From NCBI GenBank assembly GCA_009837395.1, contig VXTP01000043.1, forward strand, positions 456,936 to 520,935: DNA of 64,000 nt. Direction: 5' to 3'. Under the pieces are notes generated by a model. That model did not search any database. It was not told the DNA's origin and saw only the letters and a program-made list of their open reading frames with translations. The position numbers and the translations under genes were made by a program. Every line of letters starts with the position of its first letter. The stretch's first letter is position 1. Source of the DNA: Gemmatimonadota bacterium. Its GTDB lineage: Bacteria > JAAXHH01. This document shows, in pieces, positions 1,912-13,782 of the stretch.

Positions 1912-3345
1912 TCAGTCCCCCAGTACCCAGACGTCCTTGCCTCCGCCCCCCTGGCTGGAGTTTACGACCAGGCTGCCCTCACGCAGCGCGACCCGGCAGA
2001 ACGCACCCGGCACGATACGGGTCTCGCGGCCATGGAGCACGAAGGGCCGCAGGTCCACGTGCCGCGGCGCGGCACGGCCCCCGATCAGGCAGGGCGCGCG
2101 CGAAAGGTCCAGTACGGGCTGCGAAATGAAGTCCGCGGGGTCTTCCCGCAATGCGCGGGCGCAGGCTTCTCGTTCATCAGGCGTCGATTCCGGCCCGACC
2201 AGCATGCCGTGACCTCCCGACCCGCCTACCTGTTTCACGACGAGGTCCCGGAGGTTGTCCAGGGTGAACTCGAGATCCTCCGGACGTCGGCAGATGTAGG
2301 TCTTCACGTTCGGCAGCAGCGGTTCTTCGGCCAGGTAGTACCGTATCATATCGGGGACGTAGGCGTATACGCTCTTGTCGTCCGCGACGCCGGTGCCCGG
2401 CGCGTTCACCAGCGTGACGTTTCCGGCCCGGTAGACGCCCATGAGGCCCGGGAAGCCCAGCAGGGAGTCCGTCCGGAATACGAGCGGGTCCAGGAAATCG
2501 TCGTCCACCCGCCGGTAGATGACGTCCACCCTTTGCAGCCCTGATGTGGTGCGCATGTATACAAAACCGCCGTCGACCAGCAGGTCCCGTCCCTCGACCA
2601 GGGTCGCACCGATCTCGTCCGCCAGGTAGATGTGCTCGTAAAACGCCGCGTTGTATACGCCGGGCGTCAGCAGCACGACGCAAGGATCGTCCTCCGCGCG
2701 CGGCGCGAGTTCCCTCAGCGTTTCACGGAGCATGTGCCCGTAATGTTCGACCTCCCGCACCCGGCAGCTGCGGTAGAGCCGGCGCAGGTTGGCCTTGACC
2801 GCCTTCCGGTTGGCGACCATGTAGGATACGCCGGAAGGTACGCGCAGGTTGTCCTCGAGCACGTGAAACCCTTCGTTCGTGCGGACCAGGTCGGTGCCGC
2901 AGACCGCGACATAGGTCCCGTGCGGCACGGTCACTCCCCGCATTTCGACGCGATATTGGGGACAGCCGCGCACCAGGTCGACCGGGACGATCCCGTCTTC
3001 GACAATGCGGGCGGGACCGTATACATCGGCAAGAAACCGGTTCAACGCCTTCAACCGCTGGGCAAGTCCGGCTTCTAGCTGCCGCCAATCTGCTGCGGGC
3101 AGGATCCGGGGCAGGCAGTCGACGGGCATGATGCGCTCGCCGGCTTCATCTCCGCCGTATACCGTAAACGTGATGCCTTCGCTGGAAAAGGAATGCGTGA
3201 CCCGCTCCTGCATGCGAACGAGTTCTTCGACGGGAAGCCGGAGCAGAGATTCGTGCAGACTGCGGCAATGTGCGCGCGGCGTACCGTCAGGCAGGAACAT
3301 CTCGTCGTAGAAAGCGCTGTCCAGGTCGTATGCGTCGAAATCCAT
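1912..3345 (-). CDS. Circularly permuted type-2 ATP-grasp protein (amidoligase-like)
   Basis: Long ORF 1912-3525. The conserved N-terminal YDEMF motif lies just after Met61 (MDFDAYDLDSAFYDEMF), which is preceded by a GGGGA Shine-Dalgarno. I therefore place the start at 3345; alternatives are 3396 and 3525. Family assignment is from overall pattern (DUF404/DUF407-like). Confidence 0.7.
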   Translation of the reverse strand: MDFDAYDLDSAFYDEMFLPDGTPRAHCRSLHESLLRLPVEELVRMQERVTHSFSSEGITFTVYGGDEAGERIMPVDCLPRILPAADWRQLEAGLAQRLKALNRFLADVYGPARIVEDGIVPVDLVRGCPQYRVEMRGVTVPHGTYVAVCGTDLVRTNEGFHVLEDNLRVPSGVSYMVANRKAVKANLRRLYRSCRVREVEHYGHMLRETLRELAPRAEDDPCVVLLTPGVYNAAFYEHIYLADEIGATLVEGRDLLVDGGFVYMRTTSGLQRVDVIYRRVDDDFLDPLVFRTDSLLGFPGLMGVYRAGNVTLVNAPGTGVADDKSVYAYVPDMIRYYLAEEPLLPNVKTYICRRPEDLEFTLDNLRDLVVKQVGGSGGHGMLVGPESTPDEREACARALREDPADFISQPVLDLSRAPCLIGGRAAPRHVDLRPFVLHGRETRIVPGAFCRVALREGSLVVNSSQGGGGKDVWVLGD

Positions 3346-3693
3346 TACGAGGGTCCCCGATCGTCGGACCAGCTCATGCTTTCCACCGGCTAACATGTTA
3401 TATCGGGCAAAGCGGTAGATCAAGGGAAGTCTCCTCGCGCGATCAGGGCCCGGACGGCAAGACTTCATTGTCCAGCCGTGACATAAGCAAACCTGCCTTC
3501 TGCCGCCAACATTTCTATTGCGCATTCAAGTTCACTCGGTATAATCACGCTTGGGTCTATTCACTCGTCAGGTGTACCGTCCGCGCACGAATCCCGTCTC
3601 GCTGATACCGGTAACAACGGCCTGATCGTCCTTTCAACACAACCTGAGACATAACCGGAGGTTTCCGCGTTAGTCAAAGCAGCGGGAGATGGA

Positions 3694-5046
3694 TTGATGG
3701 GCGCTACGCTGGCGAATACACTTACCGCGTATTTTGACTTCATCTGGATGTCCTTCCTGTTGCTGGGTCCGATGTTGATCCTGGGTCTGCTGCTCTCCGG
3801 CCTGATCCACGTGTTCATCTCCCGCGAAGCGATCCTCAGATGGCTCCGGGACGACAGCCTCCGGTCGGTCTCCGTCAGCTCCGCGGTCGGTGTGCCAATT
3901 CCGCTTTGCAGCTGCTCTGTCGTCCCCGTCGTGGCTGAAATGCGACGGAAGGGCGCATCCCGTTCGTCTTGCATGGCCTTCCTGATCACCGCGCCGGAGA
4001 CCGGAGCGGACTCCATCCTCGTCACCAACGCATTTTTCGGGTTCGTCGCCGCCTTGGTACGTCCCGCCATCAGTTTTATCACGGCTGTCGTGGCGGGCGT
4101 TTTCTGCATTGGTCTGATCAGGGACGACAGCGGTGCTGTCAAGCCGAGGGAGGAAGATCACGACCATGGCCGCGACCAACATGACCATCACGACCAAGGC
4201 CGCGACCAACATGACCATCGCCACGCGGGTCACATTCCGTTGACATCGGTCAGGGACGATTGCTATGTCAGTCCCTCCGCCATGAAAGTCATGGTAACGC
4301 GGTGGATAAATGAAATAACCACCGTGGCTTCCACCTGGAGGTTCGGATCGAGGATCAAGCCCGGATTATACCGCGAAATCGATGGTGAACAGGCGAGAAA
4401 GTCTGGCAAGGTCGGCGAAGCGGACCGGGTGGAAGCGCAATACCCCGGGCTCGATTTCAAGAAGATCGTCCGTCACATCATGCACTACGGCTTTGTGGAG
4501 ATCGCCGACGATATACTCTTTGCGCTGCTCGTCGGTATCGCGCTGGGTGGCGTGCTCTTTCTTGTCATTCCGGCCGACCTGATGTCGAACGATTACGCAC
4601 GTTGGCTGTCCTATCCCGTCATGATTATCGTCGGTGTGCCCCTCTACATCTGCGCCTCGGCCAGCACACCGATAGCGGCTGCGCTGGTTGCCCGAGGCGT
4701 GAGCCCCGGCGCCGCGCTGATTTTCCTGATGACAGGACCGGCTACCAACACGAGTACCATCGCCATCATCATGAGTCGATTCGGCGCGCGCTTCGCGGCC
4801 GTTTACGTTACCTCCGTCATCGCGGTTACCGTCGTGATTGGCATAGCCATCGATTTCATGCTGCTCTCGACGGGCTTCACGATTACCGTCAACCTGCTCC
4901 CTTCCGAATCCCCCACGATCCAGTTCATACAGTGGGGCGGTGCAATGGCATTGATCGCGCTGATCATCTGGCGGTACCGCGCAGGTGCCATGCGCAGAGG
5001 ATACGAAGACATGATGGCCAACTTCAGGACTCGTACTGCGAAATGA
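3694..5046 (+). CDS. SO_0444-family (COG0701) metal permease with a His-rich cytoplasmic loop
   Basis: 450 aa with multiple TM segments and CxC motifs (PLCSCSVVP). The loop DHDHGRDQHDHHDQGRDQHDHRHAGH is encoded by a tandem DNA repeat at about 4150-4218. The stop overlaps the downstream ZIP gene start (ATGA at 5043-5046). Confidence 0.7.
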   Translation: MMGATLANTLTAYFDFIWMSFLLLGPMLILGLLLSGLIHVFISREAILRWLRDDSLRSVSVSSAVGVPIPLCSCSVVPVVAEMRRKGASRSSCMAFLITAPETGADSILVTNAFFGFVAALVRPAISFITAVVAGVFCIGLIRDDSGAVKPREEDHDHGRDQHDHHDQGRDQHDHRHAGHIPLTSVRDDCYVSPSAMKVMVTRWINEITTVASTWRFGSRIKPGLYREIDGEQARKSGKVGEADRVEAQYPGLDFKKIVRHIMHYGFVEIADDILFALLVGIALGGVLFLVIPADLMSNDYARWLSYPVMIIVGVPLYICASASTPIAAALVARGVSPGAALIFLMTGPATNTSTIAIIMSRFGARFAAVYVTSVIAVTVVIGIAIDFMLLSTGFTITVNLLPSESPTIQFIQWGGAMALIALIIWRYRAGAMRRGYEDMMANFRTRTAK

Positions 5047-5993
5047 ACGATATCGTCTTGCTACTCCTTGCGTATTCGACGGTGATCTTTGCCGTGTCCC
5101 TGATCGGTGGCAAGCTCTCGGCCGTTGTCACCCTGACCCACACCCGGACGCATCTGGTCATGAGTTTCGTGGCGGGGTTTCTTCTGGGCGTCGCCATGTA
5201 CCATCTGCTGTTGCACAGCCTCGATGACATCCCCGGTCCGCATGCCGGTGAAATCGCCGTGGGTTGCGTGGTACTGGGCGTCATCATGATGATCGTACTG
5301 CTGCGGTTCTTCAGGTTCCATCAACACGAATTCGGCCAGGATGCGGTCCTAATATCGGATCATGATGACCAGCCCGACCAGCCCGACCAGCACGGCCACC
5401 CGGTCCAGCACGGCCACCCGGTCCAGCACGGCCACCCGGTCCAGCACGGCCATCATGCTGCGGTAGTCGTCAATCCCCGAAGCGTGTTCGGTGTCGCCAC
5501 GGGCCTCGGCCTGCATACCATCACCGAGGGGATCGCCCTCGGCTCAAGCATGCGAGTGGGACTGATTCACGACGAGGGAGCGAGCCTCGTGGGACTGGGC
5601 GTGTTTCTGGCGATCATGCTGCATAAACCCCTGGACGCATATTCCATCATCGGATTGATGCGGGTATCCGGTTACCGGAAGCGGGCCTGCTCGCTGACCA
5701 ACATCGGGTTCGCCCTGCTGTGTCCGCTCATCACCGTATTGACCTTTTACGGCGTCGGCCTGCTGAGTGAACTCGACGAACTGCATGTGGTGGGTTACGT
5801 CATGGCCTTCGCCGCCGGTGTTTTCCTGTGCATCGCCCTGAGCGACCTGCTCCCCGAGATACAGTTTCACAGCCACGACCGCGGAATCCTCGTCCTGGCC
5901 TTTCTTATAGGGGTCGGGCTCGCATACGCCCTTTTCCTCTTCGAATCCGAGACTATGCACGGGCTGGAGACGTTGGATACTCATATCCATTAG
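5043..5993 (+). CDS. ZIP-family (ZupT-like) divalent metal transporter with an (HGHPVQ)n loop
   Basis: In-frame Met (MNDIVLLLLAYST...) inside the long ORF 4602-5993. It has a ZIP-like TM topology, conserved HxxxD/E-type TM motifs and the central loop DQPDQPDQHGHPVQHGHPVQHGHPVQHGH. The start overlaps the upstream stop as ATGA. Confidence 0.7.
   Translation: MNDIVLLLLAYSTVIFAVSLIGGKLSAVVTLTHTRTHLVMSFVAGFLLGVAMYHLLLHSLDDIPGPHAGEIAVGCVVLGVIMMIVLLRFFRFHQHEFGQDAVLISDHDDQPDQPDQHGHPVQHGHPVQHGHPVQHGHHAAVVVNPRSVFGVATGLGLHTITEGIALGSSMRVGLIHDEGASLVGLGVFLAIMLHKPLDAYSIIGLMRVSGYRKRACSLTNIGFALLCPLITVLTFYGVGLLSELDELHVVGYVMAFAAGVFLCIALSDLLPEIQFHSHDRGILVLAFLIGVGLAYALFLFESETMHGLETLDTHIH
5370..5455 (+). repeat. 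In-frame tandem repeat (9-bp x2 then 18-bp x3-4) encoding DQPDQP(HGHPVQ)n in the ZIP transporter
   Basis: The unit cagcacggccacccggtc is repeated three times, followed by a degenerate copy. Confidence 0.8.
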
Positions 5994-6020
5994 CATCCCC
6001 CAGCGCCGCGAGCTGCGCCT

Positions 6021-8249
6021 ATGTCGACTTCCATCCAGGGAACACCAAACGACGTGGATACCGAAACCCGCGTATTCCAGGTAGAGGGCATGACTTGCAG
6101 CGCGTGCTCGGCAAGGGTAGAAAAGATCCTCGCCCAGGTCCCCGGTGTCGCTGCCGCCCACGTGAACCTCGCGCTGGAAAGAGCGACGCTGACCGTTGCG
6201 CCCGGCGTGGAAGAAGGCGCGCTGGCCGGGCCCGTAGCCGCCGCGGGGTACCGGCTGAACGCCATTCAGGACGATCGACACGAGCCCGAGAAGAATCCTG
6301 GTCAGTCACGCCGGGACCGTATCGCCATGGTCGTCGCGATTTGCCTGACGATTCCCTTCCTGCTGCAGATGCTGGCCGGACTGCTGCGGGGCTGGACCGG
6401 TTTCGACGGGCACATGCCCGTATACGCGGAAGCGATGCTCGCGACCGTACTGCAGATCGGGGTCGGCGCCCGCTACTACCGGAGCGCTTTCCACGCGCTG
6501 CGCGGTGGCAGCGCGAACATGGACGTACTGGTGGCCCTTGGAACCACTGCGGCCTATGCGTACAGTGGTTACCTCGCCTTCCGCCTGGGGGCCGCCGCGG
6601 CAGGCCTGCTCTACTTCGAAGCCTCCGCGATCATCATTACCCTCGTACTCATCGGCAAGCACATCGAGACCCGGGCGCGTCGCAGCGCGAGCCGGGCGAT
6701 TCGGGAACTGCTCGCGATCCGGCCGGTCACCGCGCGGGTACGGACTGCAGACGGCACGGAGCGGGATACGCCGGTACATGCCTTGAAGGCCGGTGACGTC
6801 GTCATCTGCCGTCCAGGCGACCGGGTGGCCGCAGACGGTGTCGTGCTCCGGGGCGAAGCCGAGATCGACGAAGCGCTTATCACAGGTGAGAGCGTCCCGG
6901 CGTCCAAACACCCGACCGACAACGTGATCGCCGGATCGATGAACGTCAACGGCTTCCTGGAAATCGAGGCCCGGGCCGTAGGGAGCGATTCGACGCTGGG
7001 ACGGGTGATACGCCTGGTCGAAAGCGCGCAGGCTGCCAAGCCGGCGATTCAGCGCATGGTGGATCGCGTAAGCGCTGTTTTCGTACCGGTGGTCGTCGGC
7101 CTGGCCGTGATCACCTTCACCGCGTGGGCCCTTTCAGGGGCCGGCCTGGATTCCGCGTTGATCAATGCCGTCTCCGTCCTCGTCATCGCCTGTCCTTGCG
7201 CGCTGGGCCTGGCGACGCCGACGGCCATCGTGGCCGGTGCGGGCGTGGCGGCCAGGGCGGGCATCCTGATCCGGGATATCGAATCCCTGGAACAGTCGAA
7301 CGACCTGACGCACGTCATTTTCGACAAGACGGGCACGCTGACCGAAGGCCGGCCCGTGATCGCGGCCGTCACGCCCCTGGCCGAGCGGGATGAAGGCGAT
7401 CTGATACGGATCGCCACATCGCTGCAGCAGGGCAGTGAGCATCCCTTCGCCGCCGCGTTTCTGCGCATGGCCACGGAACGGTACCTCGCCCTTTCAGATG
7501 TAAGAGGATTCAGGAGCGTGGTAGCGAAAGGCGTCCAGGGAGACATCGATGGCACACGCTACCTGCTGGGAAACCGGAGGCTCTTCGAAGCATACTGTCC
7601 GGGCATCACGCCGCCCGATGTACCGGATGACGGGGGTTTCACGGCGGTTTGGCTGGCAGCCCGAACCGATGCCGGATGCGCATTCCTCGCGCGATTCGAT
7701 CTCATCGACGCGTTGCGGTCCGATGCCGTCGAGGCGGTGGACGGGCTCAGAAAGCTGGGGGTCAGGATCCTGCTGGTTTCGGGCGACGCGGAGACCGTCG
7801 TGGAGCGTATCGGACGGCAGGCCGGCGTTGACGAAACCCACGGCGCCGCTACGCCGGTAGAAAAGGAGCGTATCGTAAGCCGGCTGGCAGAAGGCGGCGC
7901 GAAGGTCTGTATGGTCGGCGACGGGATCAATGACGCACCCGCCCTCGCCCGGGCTACCGTGGGGATCGCTATGGGCTCCGGTACGGACGTGGCCATGGAA
8001 ACGGCCGCGATCACGCTGATGAGACCCAATCCGACCCTTGTGGCCGGCGCGATCGACGTGAGCCGGAAGACGATCCGGAAAATCAAGCAGAATCTGTTCT
8101 GGGCGTTTATCTACAACGTGATCGGACTGCCCCTCGCGACGCTGGGATTCCTCGTCCCCGCGTTCGCTGCGGCCATGATGGCAGCCTCCAGCATCAGCGT
8201 CGTCCTGAACGCGCTGACGCTTCGCTCGTGGCGTCCAGGAACCAGGTAG
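6021..8249 (+). CDS. copA: Copper-translocating P1B-type ATPase
   Basis: 742 aa. N-terminal HMA domain with GMTCSACSARVE, TM CPC motif (ACPCALG), DKTGTLT phosphorylation site and GDGINDAPAL hinge. Confidence 0.9.
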   Translation: MSTSIQGTPNDVDTETRVFQVEGMTCSACSARVEKILAQVPGVAAAHVNLALERATLTVAPGVEEGALAGPVAAAGYRLNAIQDDRHEPEKNPGQSRRDRIAMVVAICLTIPFLLQMLAGLLRGWTGFDGHMPVYAEAMLATVLQIGVGARYYRSAFHALRGGSANMDVLVALGTTAAYAYSGYLAFRLGAAAAGLLYFEASAIIITLVLIGKHIETRARRSASRAIRELLAIRPVTARVRTADGTERDTPVHALKAGDVVICRPGDRVAADGVVLRGEAEIDEALITGESVPASKHPTDNVIAGSMNVNGFLEIEARAVGSDSTLGRVIRLVESAQAAKPAIQRMVDRVSAVFVPVVVGLAVITFTAWALSGAGLDSALINAVSVLVIACPCALGLATPTAIVAGAGVAARAGILIRDIESLEQSNDLTHVIFDKTGTLTEGRPVIAAVTPLAERDEGDLIRIATSLQQGSEHPFAAAFLRMATERYLALSDVRGFRSVVAKGVQGDIDGTRYLLGNRRLFEAYCPGITPPDVPDDGGFTAVWLAARTDAGCAFLARFDLIDALRSDAVEAVDGLRKLGVRILLVSGDAETVVERIGRQAGVDETHGAATPVEKERIVSRLAEGGAKVCMVGDGINDAPALARATVGIAMGSGTDVAMETAAITLMRPNPTLVAGAIDVSRKTIRKIKQNLFWAFIYNVIGLPLATLGFLVPAFAAAMMAASSISVVLNALTLRSWRPGTR

Positions 8250-8272
8250 GTCTATCGGATCATCGAACCGGC

Positions 8273-10456
8273 TCAGGCGGGTTGGTCGGAAGGGGAAGCG
8301 GCGGGGGGTTCCGGTGCGTTCTCGACGGCGGCCAGTGGCAGCCTGATGGCCATTTCGGTGTATTGGCCAGATTCCGAATCCACCTCGATCGAACCACCGT
8401 GTTCACGGACGATATCGTTCGACAGGGCCAGGCCGAGGCCAGTGCCCTCGTCGGTGGGCTTGGTGGTGAAGAAGGGGTTGAAGATCTTGTCGATCACGTG
8501 GGGCGGAATCCCCTTGCCGTTGTCCTTTATCCGGACGACGAGCTGATCCTCCTCGCGGCGGGTGGACAACCAGATGCCAGGTACGTAACCGGATTCCGTG
8601 TCCGGATCCTCACGCTTCTCGTTGGTGGCGTGACAGGCGTTGTTCACCATGTTCAGGAATACCCGGGCCATTTCCTGGGAAACGATCTCGATCTCGCCCA
8701 GATCGGATTCGAAGTCTTCGTGGATTTCAAGCTGGAAGTCCGCGTTCGATGCCCGGGCGGCATGGTAGGCGAGGCGGGCGTGTTCTTCCAGCAGGGCATT
8801 GATGTCCGTCGACTGTTTATCTCCCGAACCTCGGCCCATCTGAAGCATATCGCGCACGATGCGGTTGGCCCGTTCGCCATGCTCCCGGATCCGGCGCAGG
8901 TTTTCCGTGAGGTCGCCGCCGATCTCCTTGATCAGTCCGTCCTGCTCCTCGTCGATCGAGCCGCCGGCCTCGGGCAGTTCTTCCTTCATTTCCTCGAGGA
9001 GTTCTTCCGAGGACTCCGCGAAGTTCTTGACGAAGTTCAACGGGTTCTGGATCTCGTGCGCCACGCCCGCGGTGAGTTCGCCCAGGGCCGCCAGTTTCTC
9101 CCGCATGACGATCTGGTCCTGCGCTTTCTGCAGTTCTGCCAGGGTGCTCTCCAGCTCGTCGTTTTTTCCGCGCAGTTCCTCGGCCAGTTTCTCAACGAGG
9201 TTCAGCCTTTGCGCTTCGATGGAGTGAAGCCTGAAGACTTCCAGCGCGGCGGCCATGTCCGCCACCTCGTCACGGCCGTCCAGTTCGACTTTCTGCTTCA
9301 GATCCCCTCCCGCCATCCGCCGCATGTGTTCCGATAGAAACCCCAGCCTGCGCAGCAGCACCTTGCCGACGAACAACCACGCGATCAGCAAGGCGCCGAC
9401 CAGACTGACCGCGTTCAGGGCCAGGAGAAGCTGCCGGCCCACCTGGATCGTCTGCGTCGACGCGACCGTGGCGGCCCGGGTACTCTCCTGCGCCGAATTC
9501 ACGAGGCTTTCCACTTCGGCCACCAGTTCGACGGAGAGATCCCGGTTGTTTTCGATCAGGGCCCGTTGCTGAGCGATCAGGTCCAGGTCCTCTCCGCGAA
9601 TCTCGAAGATCTTCCCCTGGCCGCTGCCCAGTTCGAAGAGCTGGGCGAATACCGGTTCGAGCCGTTGCCGCAGGGGCGCCGTACCCAGGCCGGCGAGACT
9701 TCGCTCCACGCCGCCGTCGGCCGACTCGAAGCGTTCCAGCAGGGGTTCCAGCCGATCGGCATCGGACAGGTTGAAGACGTTAGACAGGATCCGGGTGCTG
9801 ACGGTCGCCTCGGCCTGCAGATCGGCCAGATGCCTGTAACGTTGCAGTTCCTCTTCGGAGAGGTATTCCTCGCGGGGCGCCACCGGCTGATCGATGTCCC
9901 GGTATCCCGTTACCGTGTAGAACAACTGGTTGTCAATCGCCGGGACCAGGATATTCGTCAGTTCGAACTGCAGCCGTTCCAGTTCAAGACGAAGCTGCCG
10001 GCCCTGCTCCTGGAGCACGAAGCGTCTGGCCACGGACTCCTCGATCATTTCGATATTCGACATCAGCGTGTTGCCGGCTTCGCTGATGTGTTGAAAGCGT
10101 TCGTCTTCCATGCCGTAGCCGGCGATGGCTTCCAGCTGCACCGCGAAACTCTCCCGTTCCTCGGCGATGCTCGCGGTTACGGATTCAAAGGTTTCGGGGG
10201 TTTCCGCGGCCGTCAGGCGCGGCGCGGCCGCCGCCAGCGTCCCGCTCCGCTGGGCCACGCCGAAGGCCGCCGCGATCTCCGGTACGGCGACCTCGTTTAC
10301 TTCGCGCTGGGCCTCGCCGACCTCGTTGAAGGCGAACCACGCCACCATACTGGCCAGCATGGTCAGCGCTACCGCCGCCCCGATGCCCAGGTACAACTGC
10401 CCCGATATTCGGGAAGGGCCCTTGTCGTACAACCACAACAGCCACTGCTTGATCAT
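8273..10456 (-). CDS. Sensor histidine kinase (TM-periplasmic domain-TM-HAMP-HisKA-HATPase)
   Basis: 727 aa. Two hydrophobic segments flank a periplasmic region of about 300 aa. A HAMP-like region follows TM2. H-box LAALGELTAGVAHEIQNPLNF and G-box GTGLGLALS are present. The start overlaps the upstream binding-protein stop (10453-10456). Confidence 0.85.
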   Translation of the reverse strand: MIKQWLLWLYDKGPSRISGQLYLGIGAAVALTMLASMVAWFAFNEVGEAQREVNEVAVPEIAAAFGVAQRSGTLAAAAPRLTAAETPETFESVTASIAEERESFAVQLEAIAGYGMEDERFQHISEAGNTLMSNIEMIEESVARRFVLQEQGRQLRLELERLQFELTNILVPAIDNQLFYTVTGYRDIDQPVAPREEYLSEEELQRYRHLADLQAEATVSTRILSNVFNLSDADRLEPLLERFESADGGVERSLAGLGTAPLRQRLEPVFAQLFELGSGQGKIFEIRGEDLDLIAQQRALIENNRDLSVELVAEVESLVNSAQESTRAATVASTQTIQVGRQLLLALNAVSLVGALLIAWLFVGKVLLRRLGFLSEHMRRMAGGDLKQKVELDGRDEVADMAAALEVFRLHSIEAQRLNLVEKLAEELRGKNDELESTLAELQKAQDQIVMREKLAALGELTAGVAHEIQNPLNFVKNFAESSEELLEEMKEELPEAGGSIDEEQDGLIKEIGGDLTENLRRIREHGERANRIVRDMLQMGRGSGDKQSTDINALLEEHARLAYHAARASNADFQLEIHEDFESDLGEIEIVSQEMARVFLNMVNNACHATNEKREDPDTESGYVPGIWLSTRREEDQLVVRIKDNGKGIPPHVIDKIFNPFFTTKPTDEGTGLGLALSNDIVREHGGSIEVDSESGQYTEMAIRLPLAAVENAPEPPAASPSDQPA

Positions 10457-11754
10457 GGCATCACGTCCCGGAGGGTACGGATGGGATGGTAACGGCCATC
10501 CTGTCCGATCACCGTAAGGAAGACCGCGTCCGAACCCTGGTTATCCCCTTCGCCGAACTCGAGACGAAGACCGCCCAGGTCGATCGTCCCCGCCCGGTTC
10601 AGACTCTCCATGAGGCAGGATCGCCTTACGTCAGGGCCACAGCCCTCGAGGGCGGTGATCGTCAGCTTGCCGGCGAGGTATCCTTCGAAGGAAACGAATC
10701 CGGGGGTCGTGCCCGGCGCGTGCGCGGAGAGCGCTCTGCGGTACTGGACGGCGATGGCGATGTTACCGGCCGCGGGGAAGGGCACCACCTGAGAGACCAG
10801 GACACCGCGTCCGTCGGGACCCAGTTCTCCGGCCAGCGCATTACTCCCCACGAATGAAATCGTTGCGAATACGGGATTGAAACCCACGTGCCGCGCCCAC
10901 GCGATGAGCGTGGCAACCGGCTGGTAGGCGCCGATCACCACCACAGCGTCCGGTTTTCCCTGCTGCAGATCGAGCAGGCCGGCCTTGATCGCGGTGGTGT
11001 TCCTCGGATACACGCCGATCGCTACGGGATCGAGTTGCCGGCGCTCCAGCGCGCGCCGTACGCCGCGGTATCCGACCCGGCCGAAGGAGTCGTTCTGGTA
11101 CATCACACCGATGCGGGTGATGCCGAGATCGCGCGAAAGCCGGTCGACGATTTCCTCGGTCTCCTGGAAATAGGAGGCCCGCAGGTTAATGACGCCCGTA
11201 TCCGTGTTGTCACGTAAAAAAATCGCGCCGGTGAATGGCGCGATATAGGGTACGCCGGCCTCCGAAGTAATGGGAACGGCCGAGCGGGAGGTAGGGGTGC
11301 CGACGGCACCGATGAGCGCGAAAACCTCTTCTTCCTCGATCAGTTTCCGGGTATTCGCGATCGCGGCTTCCGGTTCATAGGCGTCATCGAGCGTGATCAG
11401 CTCGAGCTGCCTTCCGTGTACGCCGCCCCGGCGATTCGCTTCCTGGAAGGCCGCCTCGATCCCGAGGTTCATGTTCCGCCCGAGTTCGCGGGCGGGTCCG
11501 CTGAAGGCCGCGGACTGGCCGAAGAGTATGCGTTCGGCCGTCACACCGGGCTCGGTCGCCGCTCCGGGCTCGGTCGCCGCTCCGGGCTCGGTCACCGCTC
11601 CGGGCTCGGTCACCGCTCCGGGCTCGGTCACCGCTCCGGGCTCTTCGACCTGGGAGGCGTTCGCGCCGCTGTTTTCAGAGGATAAAGCGGGAGAGAACGC
11701 CGTCGCACAAAGGGCGAGCAGGATGACCGCCCAGTGGTCGCGCGTTCGTCTCAT
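10453..11754 (-). CDS. Periplasmic solute-binding protein (type-1 PBP, Leu/Ile/Val-binding-like) with an (EPGAVT)n linker
   Basis: 433 aa with an N-terminal signal peptide (ILLALCATAFSPALS). It has the LivK-like fold pattern. The low-complexity linker TEPGAVTEPGAVTEPGAVTEPGAATEPGAATEPG is encoded by an 18-bp tandem repeat at about 11539-11646. It overlaps both neighbouring genes by 4 nt. Confidence 0.75.
   Translation of the reverse strand: MRRTRDHWAVILLALCATAFSPALSSENSGANASQVEEPGAVTEPGAVTEPGAVTEPGAATEPGAATEPGVTAERILFGQSAAFSGPARELGRNMNLGIEAAFQEANRRGGVHGRQLELITLDDAYEPEAAIANTRKLIEEEEVFALIGAVGTPTSRSAVPITSEAGVPYIAPFTGAIFLRDNTDTGVINLRASYFQETEEIVDRLSRDLGITRIGVMYQNDSFGRVGYRGVRRALERRQLDPVAIGVYPRNTTAIKAGLLDLQQGKPDAVVVIGAYQPVATLIAWARHVGFNPVFATISFVGSNALAGELGPDGRGVLVSQVVPFPAAGNIAIAVQYRRALSAHAPGTTPGFVSFEGYLAGKLTITALEGCGPDVRRSCLMESLNRAGTIDLGGLRLEFGEGDNQGSDAVFLTVIGQDGRYHPIRTLRDVMP
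11539..11646 (-). repeat. In-frame 18-bp tandem repeat (about 6 copies) encoding the (EPGAVT)n linker of the solute-binding protein
   Basis: The units ggctcggtcgccgctccg and ggctcggtcaccgctccg are repeated back to back. Confidence 0.8.
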
Positions 11755-12176
11755 CCGTTTTCCTTCCGCTTGACGATCGTGAGTATGTTCTGGTTGTCTT
11801 CGCGGCGGTAGCTCAGTTCATCCATCATGGTCCGGACGAGGTAGATACCCAGGCCGCCCACGGGCCGATCGTCCAGTCCGGAGTCGACATCCGGTTCCGG
11901 CGAATCGGTCAGGGGGTTGAAGGCCCGTCCCTCGTCCCGCAATTCGATCGTGAGGGCTTCGGTATCCGAGCTCATCACGATTTCGAATTCATGGTCGGGA
12001 TCGCCGCCGTGGCCGTGCGTGACGATATTCACGCCCAGTTCCTCGAGGACCAGCTTGACCTGGTAGACCATACCCGGCGGCCATTCTTCGGTCTCGCCGA
12101 GTTCATCCACCGCTTCGTAGATGCGCTCCAGCTGGTCAAGCTTCGTGGGCAGGCTTAGGGACAGTCTTCTGCTCAT
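11751..12176 (-). CDS. Anti-sigma regulatory factor, serine kinase (RsbW/SpoIIAB-like, HATPase_c_2)
   Basis: 141 aa. GHGGDP, DEG..FNP and GGLGIYL motifs are typical of RsbW-type GHKL kinases. It lies between the REC-PP2C gene and the binding-protein gene. Confidence 0.75.
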   Translation of the reverse strand: MSRRLSLSLPTKLDQLERIYEAVDELGETEEWPPGMVYQVKLVLEELGVNIVTHGHGGDPDHEFEIVMSSDTEALTIELRDEGRAFNPLTDSPEPDVDSGLDDRPVGGLGIYLVRTMMDELSYRREDNQNILTIVKRKENG

Positions 12177-12178
12177 GG

Positions 12179-13342
12179 TCAGACCTGGCGTTGAAGCACG
12201 GTAACACAGGTAATATCATCCGATTGCGGCGTTTCTCCGGCGAACTCATGGACCGCCTTGAACACCGCTTTGTTTGCGTCTTCCGTACTGCCGGGAGGGT
12301 CATCCGCGAAAACCGCCTGCAGGCGGTCCATGCCGAATTCCTCCCCGTCGGCGTTCATGGCTTCCGTTACGCCGTCGGTATAGAGCAACAGGAGATCGCC
12401 CGGGGAGAGCACAACGGCGGACTGGCCGAAATTTACGCCCGGAAAAACCCCGAGCGCCAGGCCGTCCGTACCGGGGAGAAGCGTCGATGAGCCGTCGGAA
12501 TGCACCACCAGCGGAGGATTGTGCCCTCCGTTGGAATAGTCCACCTGTCCGGTCTGGGGGTTGTATACCGCGTAGAAAGTCGTGACGAACATGGCCGCTT
12601 CGTTTTCCTCGGTAAGCAGGTCGTTGACCTCCTTGAGCACGGCGCCCGGTTCGATGGCGCCGATCGCCGAGCCCTTCAGCAGGGTCCTGCTGGACATCAT
12701 GAACAGGGCGGCAGGAACGCCCTTGTCGGAAACATCGGCGATGGCCAGGGCGATCTTGCCTCCGGGCAGGCCGAAAACGTCGAAAAAGTCGCCGCCAACC
12801 TCCCGGGCCGGTTCCATGTTCGCGTATATCTCGCAATGATCGGAATCTGGGAACTCGGTGGGCAGAATCGACTGCTGCATCTTGCTGGCCACGTTCAGTT
12901 CGTTCTGCAGCCGAACGAGCTTGTCCCGCGACTCCAGGGCTTCGCGCCATTCCTCCATGTTCTTCAGCGTACGTTCAATCGTTACCCGCAAGTCCTGGAA
13001 ATCGATCGGCTTGGTAATGAAATCGAAGGCGCCCCGGTTCATGGCCGTGCGGATGTTCTTCATGTCCCCGTAGGCGGATACCACCACGGCGCGGATGTCG
13101 GGGGCAATGTTCGGTATCTGCGCCAGCAGCGTAAGACCGTCCATCCGGGGCATGTTGATATCGGACAGGACCATGTCTATATCGGGCACTTCATTGAGGC
13201 GTTCCAGGGCTTCCACGCCGTTCTGGGCGAAATATAGCGTATACAGGCCGGAACGCACGTCACGGCGCATGCGCTGCCGCATCAGGTGTTCGAGATCCGG
13301 CTCGTCGTCCACTACAAGGATTTTGTACGGTGTCTGCGTCAT
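12179..13342 (-). CDS. Response-regulator receiver fused to PP2C (SpoIIE/RsbU-type) phosphatase
   Basis: 387 aa. N-terminal REC domain (ILVVDDEPDL, phospho-acceptor LSDINMPRMDG). C-terminal PP2C domain with GGDFFDV and ADVSDKG metal-binding motifs. Confidence 0.85.
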   Translation of the reverse strand: MTQTPYKILVVDDEPDLEHLMRQRMRRDVRSGLYTLYFAQNGVEALERLNEVPDIDMVLSDINMPRMDGLTLLAQIPNIAPDIRAVVVSAYGDMKNIRTAMNRGAFDFITKPIDFQDLRVTIERTLKNMEEWREALESRDKLVRLQNELNVASKMQQSILPTEFPDSDHCEIYANMEPAREVGGDFFDVFGLPGGKIALAIADVSDKGVPAALFMMSSRTLLKGSAIGAIEPGAVLKEVNDLLTEENEAAMFVTTFYAVYNPQTGQVDYSNGGHNPPLVVHSDGSSTLLPGTDGLALGVFPGVNFGQSAVVLSPGDLLLLYTDGVTEAMNADGEEFGMDRLQAVFADDPPGSTEDANKAVFKAVHEFAGETPQSDDITCVTVLQRQV

Positions 13343-13443
13343 TTCACCCCCGGAAACCGCCGCGGCCTATACTGTTTCCGCTATACGCCACACAGCGCTT
13401 TGGAATAAACGCTGCGACGCAGTGTGGAAACAGGTAGAGGCGT

Positions 13444-13782
13444 TTACCGGCCGATCTTATCCACTGCTTCGGCCTGGGAATCGTGAATGGATATGATCTT
13501 GTCGAAACCGCTGATTTCGAAGACTTCCCGGATCGGATCCGAAAGCGAGCACAATGCGAACGCGGCATTACGCTTCTGGAGCAGTCGCGCGATCAGCAGG
13601 ATGACCCTCAGGCCCGCGCTGCTTATGTAGGACAAGGCACTGAAATCCAGCAGCACCTTGCTGTCGTCTTCACCGATGGCGCCGTTGAGCGCGTCTTCGA
13701 ATTCCCGCGCGTTGGCGCCGTCGATTCGACCTTCAACCTTCGCAATAAGTACTTCGTTTGCTCGGTCGACACTGATCTCCAT
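13444..13782 (-). CDS. STAS-domain anti-sigma-factor antagonist (RsbV/SpoIIAA-like)
   Basis: 112 aa. The motif DFSALSYISSAGLRVIL carries the conserved phosphorylatable Ser in the DxSxxxxxSSxG context. It is the first gene of the minus-strand operon. Confidence 0.8.
   Translation of the reverse strand: MEISVDRANEVLIAKVEGRIDGANAREFEDALNGAIGEDDSKVLLDFSALSYISSAGLRVILLIARLLQKRNAAFALCSLSDPIREVFEISGFDKIISIHDSQAEAVDKIGR

What the first reader, a model, noticed from the sequence alone, without database searches (positions are those of the whole stretch)
3694..8249. Metal-transport cluster: an importer-type ZIP transporter translationally coupled (ATGA) to a His-rich efflux-type permease, followed by a Cu P-type ATPase
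The SO_0444-type permease stop and the ZIP start overlap as ATGA at 5043-5046. Both proteins carry long His-rich loops, (HDH/DQH)n and (HGHPVQ)n, each encoded by perfect tandem DNA repeats. ZIP proteins normally import Zn/Fe, whereas SO_0444-type permeases and CopA export metals. Obligatory co-translation of an importer with two exporters is paradoxical. Either this ZIP acts in efflux or as a metallochaperone-like sensor, or the unit balances Zn uptake against Cu efflux. The tandem repeats could also allow repeat-number variation of the metal-binding loops.
Basis: partly seen in the sequence, partly recalled or inferred. Interest (0 to 1): 0.5.

Follow-up and report, generated by a model that had tools for sequence, protein, structure and literature searches.

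The report
ZIP–permease–CopA metal operon, deletion-made overlap
This is a real three-gene metal-transport operon (an SO_0444-type permease, a divergent ZIP transporter and a copper-exporting ATPase) in an uncultured marine bacterium; the ATGA gene overlap that looked like deliberate coupling is the scar of a ~5 kb deletion, and expressing an importer together with exporters is not paradoxical.

Summary
The window encodes an SO_0444-family permease (3697-5046), a ZIP protein (5043-5993) and a Cu(I) P1B-1 ATPase (6021-8249). Permease and ZIP overlap by ATGA, and each has a His-rich loop encoded by in-frame tandem repeats.

- **The overlap is a deletion scar.** Most relatives carry about 5 kb between permease and ZIP: an SPFH domain fused to the permease, two SPFH genes, a binding-protein gene and a 162-aa ORF. 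The window joins permease codon ~443 to the 17 bp that precede ZIP, keeping ZIP's own AGGA box. Only 3 of 80 related genomes share the overlap.
- **The ZIP is genuine but divergent.** It has the BbZIP fold and a single metal site (H158/E162/H194/D198). Lys195 fills the second site, as in human ZIP1/2/9.
- **The linkage is the real signal.** An SO_0444-type permease lies within 8 kb in 65 of 80 genomes of this subclade, but in 0 of 80 loci of the wider HKPLD-ZIP clade.
- **Likely function (inferred).** ZIP uptake and permease/CopA efflux are co-transcribed as a hard-wired flow equilibrium. Transport direction is untested.
- **The loops vary between species** but not among three near-identical assemblies.

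Interest is modest.

The parts
3518..3545 (+). Promoter-like element TTGCGC-N16-TATAAT upstream of the permease. It implies a 5' UTR of about 140 nt.
   Evidence: The TTGC and GGTAT(A/T) blocks are conserved at this spacing in 17 aligned upstream regions. The -35 hexamer matches only 3 of 6, so the consensus scan did not list it. Function is inferred.
3697..5046 (+). SO_0444-family (ArsP_1) permease, 449 aa. An alternative in-frame TTG lies at 3694.
   Evidence: Pfam ArsP_1 at 4.5e-44. NCBIfam NF033936 scores 313.4 bits against a cutoff of 300. The gene caller starts it at the ATG. It is truncated compared with the ~770-aa permease::SPFH fusions that make up most close relatives.
4157..4219 (+). 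Tandem repeat of 30 bp x 2.1 (29 of 30 identical) encoding the His/Asp-rich loop of the permease (EEDHDHGRDQHDHHDQGRDQHDHRHAGH).
   Evidence: TRF score 119. Units compared. Loop length varies among relatives. It lies in a 119-residue loop with 20 K+R, predicted cytoplasmic by the positive-inside rule.
5020..5030 (.). Deletion junction. Homology to the relatives' permease ends at ...AACTTC (5025). Homology to the sequence just upstream of the relatives' ZIP begins at AGGAC (5026).
   Evidence: Alignment of the window with both flanks of L006. There is a 7-bp imperfect microhomology, CAACGTC versus CCACGTT.
5026..5029 (+). AGGA box 13 nt upstream of the ZIP ATG, retained from the ancestral ZIP leader.
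   Evidence: It is conserved as (T/C)AGGA(C/T)(T/G)CG in L003, L004, L017, L006, L008 and L012, including loci where ZIP is not overlapped.
5043..5046 (+). ATGA: ZIP start codon overlapping the permease stop codon.
   Evidence: The same junction is present in L001-L004 and L017 only.
5043..5993 (+). Divergent ZIP-family transporter, 316 aa, 8 TM helices.
   Evidence: Pfam Zip at 4.4e-21. The AF2 model (pLDDT 77.9) matches only BbZIP structures (prob 1.00, TM up to 0.78 on the target).
5367..5452 (+). Tandem repeat of 18 bp (three perfect units plus 12 nt), preceded by a 9-bp GACCAGCCC repeat. It encodes the (HGHPVQ)3HGHH loop between TM3 and TM4.
   Evidence: TRF scores 109-133. Units listed. 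L003 has two diverged units and P0002 lacks 12 residues. The loop is disordered in the model (residues 95-142).
5514..5531 (+). TM4 metal-site motif HTITEG (H158, T159, E162).
   Evidence: Invariant in 120 homologues. hhalign pairs it with ZupT HNFPEG.
5622..5639 (+). TM5 motif HKPLDA (H194, K195, D198). Lys sits at the position of an M2 ligand.
   Evidence: Invariant H-K-P-L. hhalign pairs it with ZupT HNIPEG. HKP(L/F)D(A/S) is present in about 130 of 149 family representatives.
6021..8249 (+). P1B-1 type Cu(I)-exporting ATPase (CopA-like), 742 aa, with one N-terminal CxxC HMA domain. It starts 27 bp after the ZIP stop.
   Evidence: Domains. Motifs found: CSAC26, TGE288, CPC391, DKTGT435, HP474, GDGIND633, N-x6-YN-x4-P (YN698) and MAASS720.

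Best explanation
**What it is.**
- The region is one operon of an uncultured bacterium labelled Gemmatimonadota.
- It probably starts at a promoter near 3518-3545.
- It encodes an SO_0444-type permease, a ZIP transporter and a Cu(I)-exporting P1B-1 ATPase.

**How the overlap arose.**
- The ATGA overlap is a by-product of a ~5 kb deletion.
- The ancestral arrangement was permease::SPFH, SPFH, SPFH, periplasmic-binding protein, 162-aa ORF, ZIP, CopA.
- The deletion joined permease codon ~443 to the last 17 bp of the ZIP leader.
- The permease frame therefore runs on for seven codons and stops on the ZIP start codon.
- ZIP keeps its own AGGA box, so it need not depend on coupling.

**Proposed function (inferred, not shown).**
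- The ZIP has the canonical topology: N- and C-termini outside, His-rich loop inside.
- It has a single transport site (H158, E162, H194, D198), with Lys195 occupying the second site.
- I propose that it carries a divalent metal, most likely Zn2+ and possibly Cd/Mn/Fe, into the cytoplasm.
- I propose that the permease removes excess Zn/Cu and CopA removes Cu(I).
- Co-transcription would then fix the ratio of influx to efflux capacity. This would be a genetically hard-wired 'flow equilibrium'.
- The cytoplasmic His-rich loops of ZIP and permease would act as local metal-binding or regulatory elements.
- These loops evolve quickly by in-frame repeat gain and loss.
For: **Shown: gene identities.**
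- Family and motif assignments.
- ZIP fold.
- Site mapping against ZupT.
- Literature on single-site ZIPs with Lys at M2: hZIP2 K203 (PMC6527156); hZIP1/2/9 (PMC9530640); hZIP9 with an M1-only site (bioRxiv 2025.08.09.669477).

**Shown: deletion scar.**
- The window matches the permease of L006 up to YEDMMANF. It then matches the 17 bp upstream of the L006 ZIP.
- 31-33 of 80 related genomes carry the SPFH/PBP/162-aa insert.
- About two-thirds of the 120 closest permease homologues are ~770-aa ArsP_1+Band_7 fusions.
- Non-fused relatives also extend beyond the window's truncation point, with RPLSRPW....
- The ATGA junction occurs only in L001-L004 and L017.

**Shown: one operon is ancestral.** In L006/L085 the gaps between the seven or eight genes are 6-96 bp or overlaps.

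**Shown: linkage.**
- A permease lies within 8 kb in 65 of 80 genomes. It is on the same strand and upstream in 63.
- ZIP and permease identities to the window co-vary, r = 0.90.
- In the wider HKPLD clade, 0 of 80 loci have a permease neighbour.

**Supports the import direction (weak).**
- All biochemically characterised bacterial ZIPs import (general knowledge).
- In the wider clade, relatives are stand-alone genes. Three of 48 sit next to a Fur-family regulator.
- The periplasmic loops are acidic and the cytoplasmic loops basic, as in canonical ZIPs.

**Supports compatibility of import with export.** The flow-equilibrium model includes ZupT (PMC11647595).

**SO_0444 as exporter.** The Shewanella mutant is Zn- and Cu-sensitive and was complemented (PMC3219624). 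The gene is induced by Cd and Cu in Nitratiruptor (PMC10092412).
Against: **Direction.**
- The direction of transport was not tested for any of the three proteins.
- 'Efflux' for SO_0444 is itself inferred from sensitivity phenotypes.

**Context.** This ZIP subclade sits among exporters in nearly every genome (SO_0444 permease, CopA, CDF, CzcBA). That is unusual for an uptake gene and fits a resistance role equally well.

**Regulation.** No metal-responsive regulator, operator or riboswitch was found, so the regulatory logic is unknown.

**Futile cycling.** If the permease also exports Zn, co-expression costs energy.

**Independence.** The linkage statistics come from a few related lineages, so the 80 genomes are not independent observations.
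Confidence: 0.5

Rival explanations
1. The ZIP subclade has been recruited for detoxification. It would move metal out of the cytoplasm, or act as a bidirectional valve, possibly by H+ antiport through the titratable Lys195. All three genes would then work in the same direction.
For: - This subclade is persistently embedded among exporters: 65 of 80 loci with an SO_0444 permease, 17 with CopA, 11 with a divergent CDF, plus CzcBA nearby.
- The wider clade shows no such neighbours, 0 of 80.
- The lineage tolerated forced co-expression after the deletion.
- There is a precedent for a ZIP moving metal out of the cytosol: Drosophila ZIP13 (PMC4130162).
- In hZIP2 the equivalent Lys tunes H+ and voltage dependence (PMC6527156).
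Against: - I know of no bacterial ZIP shown to export.
- An inside-negative membrane potential opposes passive cation efflux.
- The metal site and topology are those of importing single-site ZIPs.
- No sequence feature was found that separates this subclade from its unlinked relatives, apart from E for D in TM4.
Confidence: 0.15
2. Import is part of the pathway. The ZIP would clear metal from the periplasm into the cytoplasm. There the metal would be sensed, bound by the His-rich loops and handed to CopA or the permease. This resembles MerT or PbrT in resistance operons, or the CcoA-to-CcoI copper relay that supplies cuproenzymes.
For: - Putative uptake genes occur inside resistance operons: PbrT with PbrA (PMC3431237).
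- A Cu importer (CcoA) and a P1B ATPase (CcoI) both act in cbb3 oxidase biogenesis (PMC3903287 and PMC5829832).
- ZIP lies immediately upstream of CopA, with a 25-75 bp gap, in 17 of 80 genomes and in a Tara contig.
- Nearly invariant Cys227 (TM6, next to the residue aligned with ZupT's TM6 Glu) and invariant Cys263 (TM7) would suit softer metals.
Against: - No cuproenzyme, chaperone or reductase gene lies in the cluster.
- The role of PbrT is itself unproven.
- ZIPs are not known to carry Cu(I).
- CopA is absent from most linked loci, so it is not the conserved partner.
Confidence: 0.12
3. The linkage has no functional meaning. Permease, ZIP and CopA would simply be neighbours inherited together in a few related lineages, and the deletion brought two unrelated genes into contact.
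For: - The 80 genomes fall into a few related groups, and ZIP and permease identities co-vary as expected for vertical co-inheritance.
- The spacing and the intervening genes differ widely between loci.
Against: - The linkage survives at least four rearranged layouts (overlap, short gap, divergent CDF in between, 4-kb insert).
- It persists down to about 50% ZIP identity and in MAGs labelled as different phyla.
- Unlinked relatives show no conserved neighbourhood at all.
- All neighbours that recur next to ZIP in the short-gap and CDF layouts are metal transporters.
Confidence: 0.15
4. The ATGA overlap would enforce obligatory, stoichiometric co-translation because permease and ZIP act as a unit or complex.
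For: - The overlap is real and has been kept in four species-level genomes with 78-87% ZIP identity.
Against: - 60 of 63 linked genomes have no overlap.
- The T and G of the TGA stop are also the second and third bases of the ZIP ATG, and its A is the first base of the conserved Asn codon. The overlap is therefore conserved for free.
- The seven-codon read-through tail is not conserved: FRTRTAK versus VRMRPSR.
- ZIP keeps its own AGGA box.
Confidence: 0.05

Closest known systems
Bacterial GufA-type ZIPs: E. coli ZupT and Bordetella BbZIP
   Same: - Same Pfam family and the same 8-helix fold. BbZIP structures are the only PDB matches (prob 1.00).
- The TM4 H-x-x-x-E and TM5 H-x-x-x-D/E ligands of the M1 site align.
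- The variable His-rich loop lies between TM3 and TM4.
   Different: - Only 16-20% identity.
- A profile search of PDB sequences does not reach BbZIP.
- The ZupT equivalog model scores 28.8 bits against a cutoff of 252.
- The M2 ligands are replaced (N to T159, N/D to K195), so there is no binuclear centre.
Single-site eukaryotic ZIPs: human ZIP2 (H175/S176/E179, H202/K203), ZIP1 and ZIP9
   Same: - The same H-(S/T)-x-x-E ... H-K pattern, with Lys in place of the second metal (PMC6527156; PMC9530640; bioRxiv 2025.08.09.669477).
- From memory, the ZIP9 TM5 sequence 'AIMLHK' resembles the window's 'LAIMLHKPLDA'. This is a lead and was not tested.
   Different: - The window protein is prokaryotic.
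- Asp198 is retained one turn after His194, where ZIP1/2 have hydrophobic residues.
- No direct sequence comparison with human ZIPs was possible with these tools.
Shewanella oneidensis SO_0444 (Cu/Zn efflux permease; ArsP_1/PF03773)
   Same: - It passes the NCBIfam equivalog cutoff (313.4 against 300).
- The motifs PLCSCSVVP and PLYICASASTP are invariant in 63 homologues.
   Different: - It carries a ~100-residue central insertion with a His/Asp-rich repeat. The model spans 351 positions and the protein 449 residues.
- No ZntR-like regulator is adjacent, whereas SO_0444 has SO_0443 (PMC3219624; context).
- Most close relatives are fused to an SPFH domain.
- No solved structure resembles the model.
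CopA-type P1B-1 Cu(I) ATPases
   Same: All signature motifs are present (CPC, N-x6-YN-x4-P, M-x2-SS, DKTGT, TGE, HP), together with an N-terminal CxxC HMA domain.
   Different: - There is one HMA domain rather than the two of E. coli CopA. The E. coli equivalog model is not reached (593.7 against 1316).
- It was not determined whether this is a detoxifying CopA1 or a cuproenzyme-loading CopA2/CcoI type.
Flow equilibrium of zinc in Cupriavidus metallidurans (ZupT and other importers running together with ZntA/CzcCBA exporters)
   Same: Simultaneous activity of a ZIP importer and inner-membrane exporters sets the cytoplasmic metal pool (PMC11647595).
   Different: In Cupriavidus the genes are dispersed and separately regulated. 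Here importer and exporters lie on one transcript, so their ratio is fixed.
Resistance operons that contain an uptake gene (pbrTRABCD; mer operon MerT/MerP)
   Same: A putative importer is encoded together with a P-type efflux ATPase (PMC3431237).
   Different: - The importer family differs (ILT or MerT rather than ZIP).
- Those operons have a MerR-type regulator, which is absent here.

Membership tests
[quoted passage not shown] | Profile HMM match above Pfam's gathering score | tested here: met
   75.9 bits against 35.1; residues 10-294 match profile positions 6-319 of 323.
[quoted passage not shown] | Eight-TM fold of BbZIP | tested here: met
   The AF2 model has 8 helices and pLDDT 77.9. 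The top 10 Foldseek hits are all BbZIP, prob 1.00, TM on target 0.61-0.78.
[quoted passage not shown] | M1 transport-site ligands on TM4 (H-x-x-x-E/D) and TM5 (H/Q-x-x-x-E/D) | tested here: met
   H158/E162 and H194/D198 align with ZupT HNFPEG and HNIPEG. H158, E162 and H194 are invariant and D198 nearly invariant in 120 homologues.
[quoted passage not shown] | Binuclear centre (M2 ligands N/D on TM4 and TM5, E on TM6). This defines BbZIP/LIV-1-type members, not the whole family. | tested here: not met
   T159 and K195 replace the M2 ligands. In the ZupT alignment P228 pairs with the TM6 Glu, with C227 beside it. Human ZIP1/2/9 show the same situation.
[quoted passage not shown] | Transport of divalent metal towards the cytoplasm | not testable with these tools
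   This needs uptake or complementation assays.
ZupT equivalog (NF003243) | Score above the curated cutoff | tested here: not met
   28.8 bits against 252. The protein is not a ZupT orthologue.
SO_0444 family Cu/Zn efflux transporter (NF033936) | Score above the curated equivalog cutoff | tested here: met
   313.4 bits against 300, so it passes narrowly. Residues 20-425 match profile positions 4-348 of 351.
SO_0444 family Cu/Zn efflux transporter (NF033936) | Requirement for growth under Cu/Zn stress (the phenotype that named the family) | not testable with these tools
   Known only for Shewanella SO_0444 (PMC3219624).
SO_0444 family Cu/Zn efflux transporter (NF033936) | Adjacent ZntR/MerR-type regulator, as in Shewanella | tested here: not met
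   The flanking genes are a CP_ATPgrasp gene (divergent) and ZIP. No regulator was called within the operon.
P1B-1 Cu(I)/Ag(I) ATPase (CopA-like) | TM signature CPC, N-x6-YN-x4-P and M-x2-SS-x5-N, plus DKTGT, TGE and HP | tested here: met
   All motifs were found at residues 391, 689-703, 720-730, 435, 288 and 474. TIGR01511 scores 534.9 against 397.
Translationally coupled gene pair | Stop/start overlap | tested here: met
   ATGA at 5043-5046.
Translationally coupled gene pair | Overlap conserved among relatives, as expected if coupling is selected | tested here: not met
   3 of 63 linked genome loci have the overlap. The others have gaps of 42 bp to 5 kb.
Translationally coupled gene pair | Downstream translation depends on upstream translation | not testable with these tools
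   This needs reporter fusions. An independent AGGA box is present.
Contingency (rapidly repeat-variable) locus | Repeat number differs within a population or between near-identical genomes | tested here: not met
   The window, L001 and L002 come from three assemblies and differ by 4 SNPs each. All have the same repeat numbers. Variation is seen only between species. The units are multiples of 3 bp, so a change alters loop length and not the reading frame.

The most novel reading that the evidence does not exclude
A distinct bacterial ZIP subclade has been recruited into a conserved metal-resistance module. The module comprises an SO_0444-type permease, often fused to an SPFH domain, with two further SPFH proteins and a periplasmic binding protein. 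In it the ZIP would work in the efflux direction, or as a gated valve partnered with the permease. That would be the first bacterial ZIP with a detoxifying role.
Probability: 0.15. Interest if true: 0.7.

Novelty: new variant of a known kind. Interest (0 to 1): 0.3.

Why it matters
All three proteins belong to known families, and the overlap that prompted the finding is an ordinary deletion scar. As found, it is mostly ordinary.

**What is new.** One ZIP subclade is kept in an operon with an SO_0444-type permease across dozens of uncultured marine genomes. Many of these have isolate names that suggest sponge or coral hosts. Its nearest ZIP relatives are never linked to such a permease.

**If the ZIP imports,** this is a natural case of importer and exporter capacities being fixed on one mRNA, a hard-wired flow equilibrium. 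It could be used to test that model.

**If the ZIP exports,** it would overturn the working rule that bacterial ZIPs are importers.

**Other uses.**
- The SO_0444 family has never been assayed biochemically and has no structural relative, so a conserved partner gives a handle on its function.
- The deletion gives a natural before-and-after pair, with and without the SPFH/PBP module, for studying what SPFH scaffolds do for a transporter.

Tried and rejected
- **Riboswitch or leader RNA.** Rfam found nothing in the whole window at gathering thresholds. In 3340-3760 at E<=10 it gave only a chance snoRNA hit. The 156-nt leader folds no better than shuffles, z = 0.32.
- **SD-proximal hairpin.** A hairpin that seemed to covary by eye got only 3 pairs and -1.1 kcal/mol from RNAalifold. 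Rejected.
- **Consensus promoter scan.** No sites in 3200-8600.
- **Terminators.** The terminator-like hits lie inside coding sequence and are no more frequent than in shuffles.
- **Sequence route to a solved ZIP structure.** Profile searches of PDB sequences with 25 or 120 homologues did not reach BbZIP, even at E<=10. Fold comparison and hhalign against ZupT were used instead.
- **AlphaFold-DB fold search,** meant to find the nearest named ZIP subfamily. The library was unavailable.
- **Permease structure.** The AF2 model is only moderate (pLDDT 68.7). It has no significant PDB match: best E = 0.12, TM 0.15.
- **Regulon search.** The palindrome TAACATGTTA at 3391-3400 occurs once in the window and only at the syntenic site in relatives.
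- **CDF-ZIP divergent intergenic regions in Latescibacterota.** The sequences are too closely related to reveal an operator.
- **Greedy ORF clustering of neighbourhoods.** It was too noisy in these GC-rich loci and was replaced by targeted tblastn.
- **Horizontal-transfer signal.** Permease and ZIP have 58-59% GC against 61-66% in the flanks and CopA. This is a small difference that I attribute to membrane-protein composition, not to a clear island.
- **Exact-sequence cluster look-up.** The window's ZIP was not indexed. The permease cluster has 3 members, all 449 aa.
- **Literature.** Searches for PF03773, SO_0444 and ZIP with efflux found no description of a ZIP/SO_0444 linkage.

Full report
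**1. What is in the sequence**

Between a divergent CP_ATPgrasp/Alpha-E/transglutaminase cluster (minus strand, start at 3345) and a convergent sensor-kinase gene lie three plus-strand ORFs.

- *Permease, 3697-5046.* There is also an in-frame TTG at 3694. It matches Pfam ArsP_1 (4.5e-44). It just passes the NCBIfam equivalog model for SO_0444-family Cu/Zn efflux transporters (313.4 bits, cutoff 300).
- *ZIP, 5043-5993.* It matches Pfam Zip (75.9 bits, cutoff 35.1). It is far from ZupT (28.8 bits, cutoff 252).
- *ATPase, 6021-8249.* It is a heavy-metal P-type ATPase with one CxxC HMA domain. It carries the full P1B-1 (Cu+/Ag+) signature: CPC391, N-x6-YN-x4-P, MAASS720, DKTGT435, TGE288 and HP474.

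The permease stop and ZIP start overlap as ATGA at 5043-5046.

Tandem Repeats Finder reports two arrays.
- A 30-bp x 2.1 array lies at 4157-4219, with units identical at 29 of 30 positions.
- An 18-bp array lies at 5367-5452, with three perfect units plus 12 nt.

These arrays encode EEDHDHGRDQHDHHDQGRDQHDHRHAGH in the permease and DQHGHPVQHGHPVQHGHPVQHGHH in the ZIP. Only 'perfect' needs softening for the permease repeat.

**2. Source**

- The same genes occur on metagenome scaffolds ENGE20-1.
- Close homologues are labelled Gemmatimonadetes/Gemmatimonadota MAGs.
- Many related MAGs have isolate names (IRC, RHO, COS, APA) that match the sponge species sampled in PMC8163846. That paper lists Gemmatimonadota and Latescibacterota as typical sponge symbionts.
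- The host assignment is an inference from these names.

**3. The ZIP start and the origin of the overlap**

The ZIP N-terminus (M-N-D-x-x-L-L-L) is shared by independently called homologues. In relative L006 an in-frame TAG lies 18 nt upstream of the same ATG. The MNDIV start is therefore sound.

The overlap is not a conserved design. I looked at 80 species-representative genomes that encode a ZIP with 49-87% identity.
- The permease-ZIP junction is ATGA in only three of them, L003, L004 and L017, the closest relatives.
- 19 loci have gaps of up to about 400 bp.
- 11 loci have gaps of 0.4-1.5 kb, usually with a CDF exporter gene on the opposite strand.
- 27 loci have more than 3 kb between the two genes.

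The large insert was characterised in L006/L085 and in 31-33 loci overall. It consists of:
- an SPFH/Band-7 domain fused in frame to the permease;
- two further SPFH genes;
- a Peripla_BP_6 gene;
- a 162-aa ORF with no Pfam match.

About two-thirds of the 120 closest permease homologues are ~770-aa ArsP_1+Band_7 fusions.

Aligning the window with both flanks of L006 shows the breakpoint.
- The window follows the L006 permease to ...GACATGATGGCCAAC-TTC (residues YEDMMANF).
- It then continues directly with AGGACTCGT.C....A.ATGAACGAT, the 17 bp that precede ZIP in L006.
- The two L006 flanks share an imperfect 7-bp microhomology (CAACGTC and CCACGTT).
- Non-fused permeases in other relatives also extend beyond this point (…NIRPLTRPW…). 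The window's permease is therefore the truncated form.

After the junction the permease frame reads seven unconserved codons (FRTRTAK; VRMRPSR in L003). It then ends on a TGA that shares its T and G with the ZIP ATG and takes its A from the first base of the conserved Asn codon.

The overlap is thus a deletion scar and is maintained for free. The ZIP keeps the AGGA box of its ancestral leader (5026-5029, 13 nt upstream).

**4. What kind of ZIP this is**

- An AlphaFold2 model built from 120 homologues has eight helices and mean pLDDT 77.9. The loop at residues 95-142 is disordered.
- Against the PDB it matches only BbZIP structures (prob 1.00, 16-20% identity).
- Profile searches of PDB sequences do not reach BbZIP at all.
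- Profile-profile alignment with E. coli ZupT pairs HTITEG (158-163) with HNFPEG. It pairs HKPLDA (194-199) with HNIPEG. It places C227/P228 at ZupT's TM6 Glu.

The M1 ligands (H158, E162, H194, D198) are therefore kept. The M2 ligands are replaced by Thr159 and Lys195. This is the pattern reported for human ZIP2, with H175/S176/E179 and H202/K203. There the Lys amine occupies the second metal position and tunes H+ and voltage dependence (PMC6527156). The same pattern is reported for hZIP1 and hZIP9 (PMC9530640; bioRxiv 2025.08.09.669477).

An exhaustive HMM search finds 351 family representatives at E<=1e-30. About 130 of the best 149 carry HKP(L/F)D(A/S) together with H(T/S)xx(D/E)G. This is a sizeable, mostly unstudied bacterial ZIP clade with a single metal site.

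Charge distribution fits the canonical topology: basic loops and the His-rich loop inside, acidic loops and the C-terminus outside.

**5. Genomic linkage**

Within the window's subclade:
- an SO_0444-type permease lies within 8 kb in 65 of 80 genomes;
- it is on the same strand and upstream in 63;
- ZIP and permease identities to the window co-vary (r = 0.90);
- CopA follows ZIP directly in 17 genomes and in a Tara Oceans contig;
- CDF (11 loci) and CzcBA-type RND genes are other recurrent neighbours.

As a control I fetched 80 metagenome loci of the wider HKPLD clade (36-48% identity to the window's ZIP).
- None has an SO_0444-type permease nearby.
- Their neighbourhoods are not conserved.
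- A Fur-family regulator is adjacent in 3 of 48 long loci.

The linkage is therefore specific to this subclade. It has survived several rearrangements and is the most informative feature of the locus.

**6. His-rich loops**

- Both loops are predicted cytoplasmic.
- Their length and sequence vary among relatives. The ZIP loop ranges from about 10 to 36 residues. L003 has two diverged HGHP(D/L)Q units where the window has three identical ones. P0002 lacks 12 residues.
- The permease (HD)n tract ranges from about 6 to more than 25 residues.
- The three identical 18-bp units imply a recent expansion.
- Three near-identical assemblies (window, L001, L002; 4 SNPs each) have the same repeat numbers. 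All three members of the permease's 90% cluster are 449 aa.
- Repeat gain and loss is therefore evident between species. Rapid within-population variation is not.

**7. Regulation**

- A TTGCGC-N16-TATAAT element at 3518-3545 is conserved in position in 17 relatives. It is the likely promoter.
- No Rfam family matches and the leader shows no significant fold.
- The gaps within the operon are -4 and 27 bp.
- In the insert-bearing relatives the gaps are also small, 6-96 bp. Co-transcription of permease, ZIP and CopA is therefore probably ancestral and not created by the deletion.
- No metal-sensing regulator gene is adjacent.

**8. Most likely mechanism**

*Shown:* the identities, the fold, the single-site motif, the deletion scar and the conserved linkage.

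*Inferred:* the ZIP imports a divalent metal, probably Zn2+. The permease and CopA export Zn/Cu and Cu(I). One transcript fixes the ratio of influx to efflux capacity.

This matches the experimentally supported 'flow equilibrium' in Cupriavidus metallidurans. There, importers including ZupT and exporters run simultaneously (PMC11647595). The 'paradox' therefore dissolves.

Evidence that SO_0444 is an exporter is genetic only. The mutant is Zn- and Cu-sensitive, was complemented, and has a ZntR-like regulator (PMC3219624). The gene is induced by Cd and Cu in Nitratiruptor (PMC10092412).

Confidence in the whole account is about 0.5. It is about 0.9 or more for the identities and the deletion scar, and about 0.55 for the import direction.

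**9. Rivals**

- (a) The subclade works in efflux or as a valve, with Drosophila ZIP13 as precedent (PMC4130162). Confidence 0.15.
- (b) Import feeds a detoxification or relay pathway, as proposed for PbrT (PMC3431237) or as in the CcoA/CcoI copper route. Confidence 0.12.
- (c) The linkage is neutral co-inheritance. Confidence 0.15.
- (d) Obligatory coupling of a permease-ZIP unit. Confidence 0.05.

**10. Verdict**

The finding is real and correctly annotated, but its headline, a paradoxical translational coupling, is explained by a deletion and by known physiology. The residual novelty is a ZIP subclade conserved in operons with SO_0444-type permeases, often with an SPFH/PBP module. I found no description of this in the literature searches. 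Interest 0.3; new variant of a known kind.

Noticed in passing
L006:1655-7904 (same as L085:2658-8904); absent from the window: Between permease and ZIP, 31-33 of 80 related genomes carry a conserved module. It consists of an SPFH/Band-7 domain fused to the permease C-terminus, two further SPFH genes, a Peripla_BP_6 gene and a 162-aa ORF with no Pfam match. Most of the closest permease homologues are such ~770-aa fusions. What SPFH scaffolds do for this transporter is unknown.
   Followed up: partly
L088-L167 (80 metagenome loci): The wider HKP(L/F)D ZIP clade (36-48% identity) never has an SO_0444-type permease within 8 kb and has no conserved neighbourhood. A Fur-family regulator is adjacent in 3 of 48 long loci. 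The clade has 351 representatives at E<=1e-30 and appears uncharacterised.
   Followed up: partly
window 3372-3424: This is the most conserved non-coding block of the divergent intergenic region. It contains the perfect palindrome TAACATGTTA (3391-3400). The palindrome is unique in the window and present only at the syntenic site in relatives. It may be an operator or promoter element for the divergent CP_ATPgrasp operon or for the permease operon.
   Followed up: partly
window 3689-3699: A two-codon mini-ORF (ATG GAT TGA) ends overlapping the permease start as TGATG. It is kept in L003, L004 and L017, and as TTG GAT TGA in L006.
   Followed up: no
window 3343-3376, minus strand: A 10-codon upstream ORF (MSWSDDRGPS) ends as TAATG on the start codon of the CP_ATPgrasp gene (start 3345). 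In this intergenic region a 32-aa gene is called in relatives L085 and L086.
   Followed up: no
window 11546-11643, 41778-41982, 51558-51615, 52824-52945: There are other in-frame coding tandem repeats. One is 18 bp x 5.4 (98% matches), encoding (PGAVTE)n near the N-terminus of a 433-aa periplasmic-binding-like protein. The others are 81 bp x 2.5, 15 bp x 3.9 and 9 bp x 13.6. Repeat-encoded low-complexity loops are therefore not special to the metal genes in this genome.
   Followed up: no
window 8273-13782, minus strand: A signalling cluster lies convergent with CopA and is syntenic in relatives. It comprises a TorS-like sensor kinase (727 aa), a Peripla_BP_6-like protein (433 aa), an anti-sigma-type kinase (HATPase_c_2, 141 aa), a response regulator with a SpoIIE/PP2C phosphatase domain (387 aa) and a STAS protein (112 aa). 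Together these form a partner-switching module. No link to the metal operon was shown.
   Followed up: no
L083:2376-9867; L022, L025-L027, L038, L047, L051: In MAGs labelled Latescibacterota the ZIP is transcribed divergently from a CDF exporter gene, about 260 bp apart. It sits next to czcB-czcA-like RND genes and the permease, so the locus is a dense metal-efflux island.
   Followed up: partly
window 5721-5723 (Cys227) and 5829-5831 (Cys263): Cys227 (TM6, LLCP) is nearly invariant and Cys263 (TM7, FLCIALSDLLPE) is invariant in the ZIP. Cys227 lies next to the residue aligned with ZupT's TM6 Glu, a second-site (M2) ligand. This might shift selectivity towards softer metals. Not tested.
   Followed up: no
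L003-L082 record titles: Near-identical gene clusters are labelled Gemmatimonadetes, Candidatus Latescibacterota or simply 'bacterium' in different records. More distant copies occur in MAGs labelled Opitutales, Pseudomonadales, Anaerolineae and Candidatus Foliamicus. This means either inconsistent MAG taxonomy or transfer of the module between phyla.
   Followed up: no
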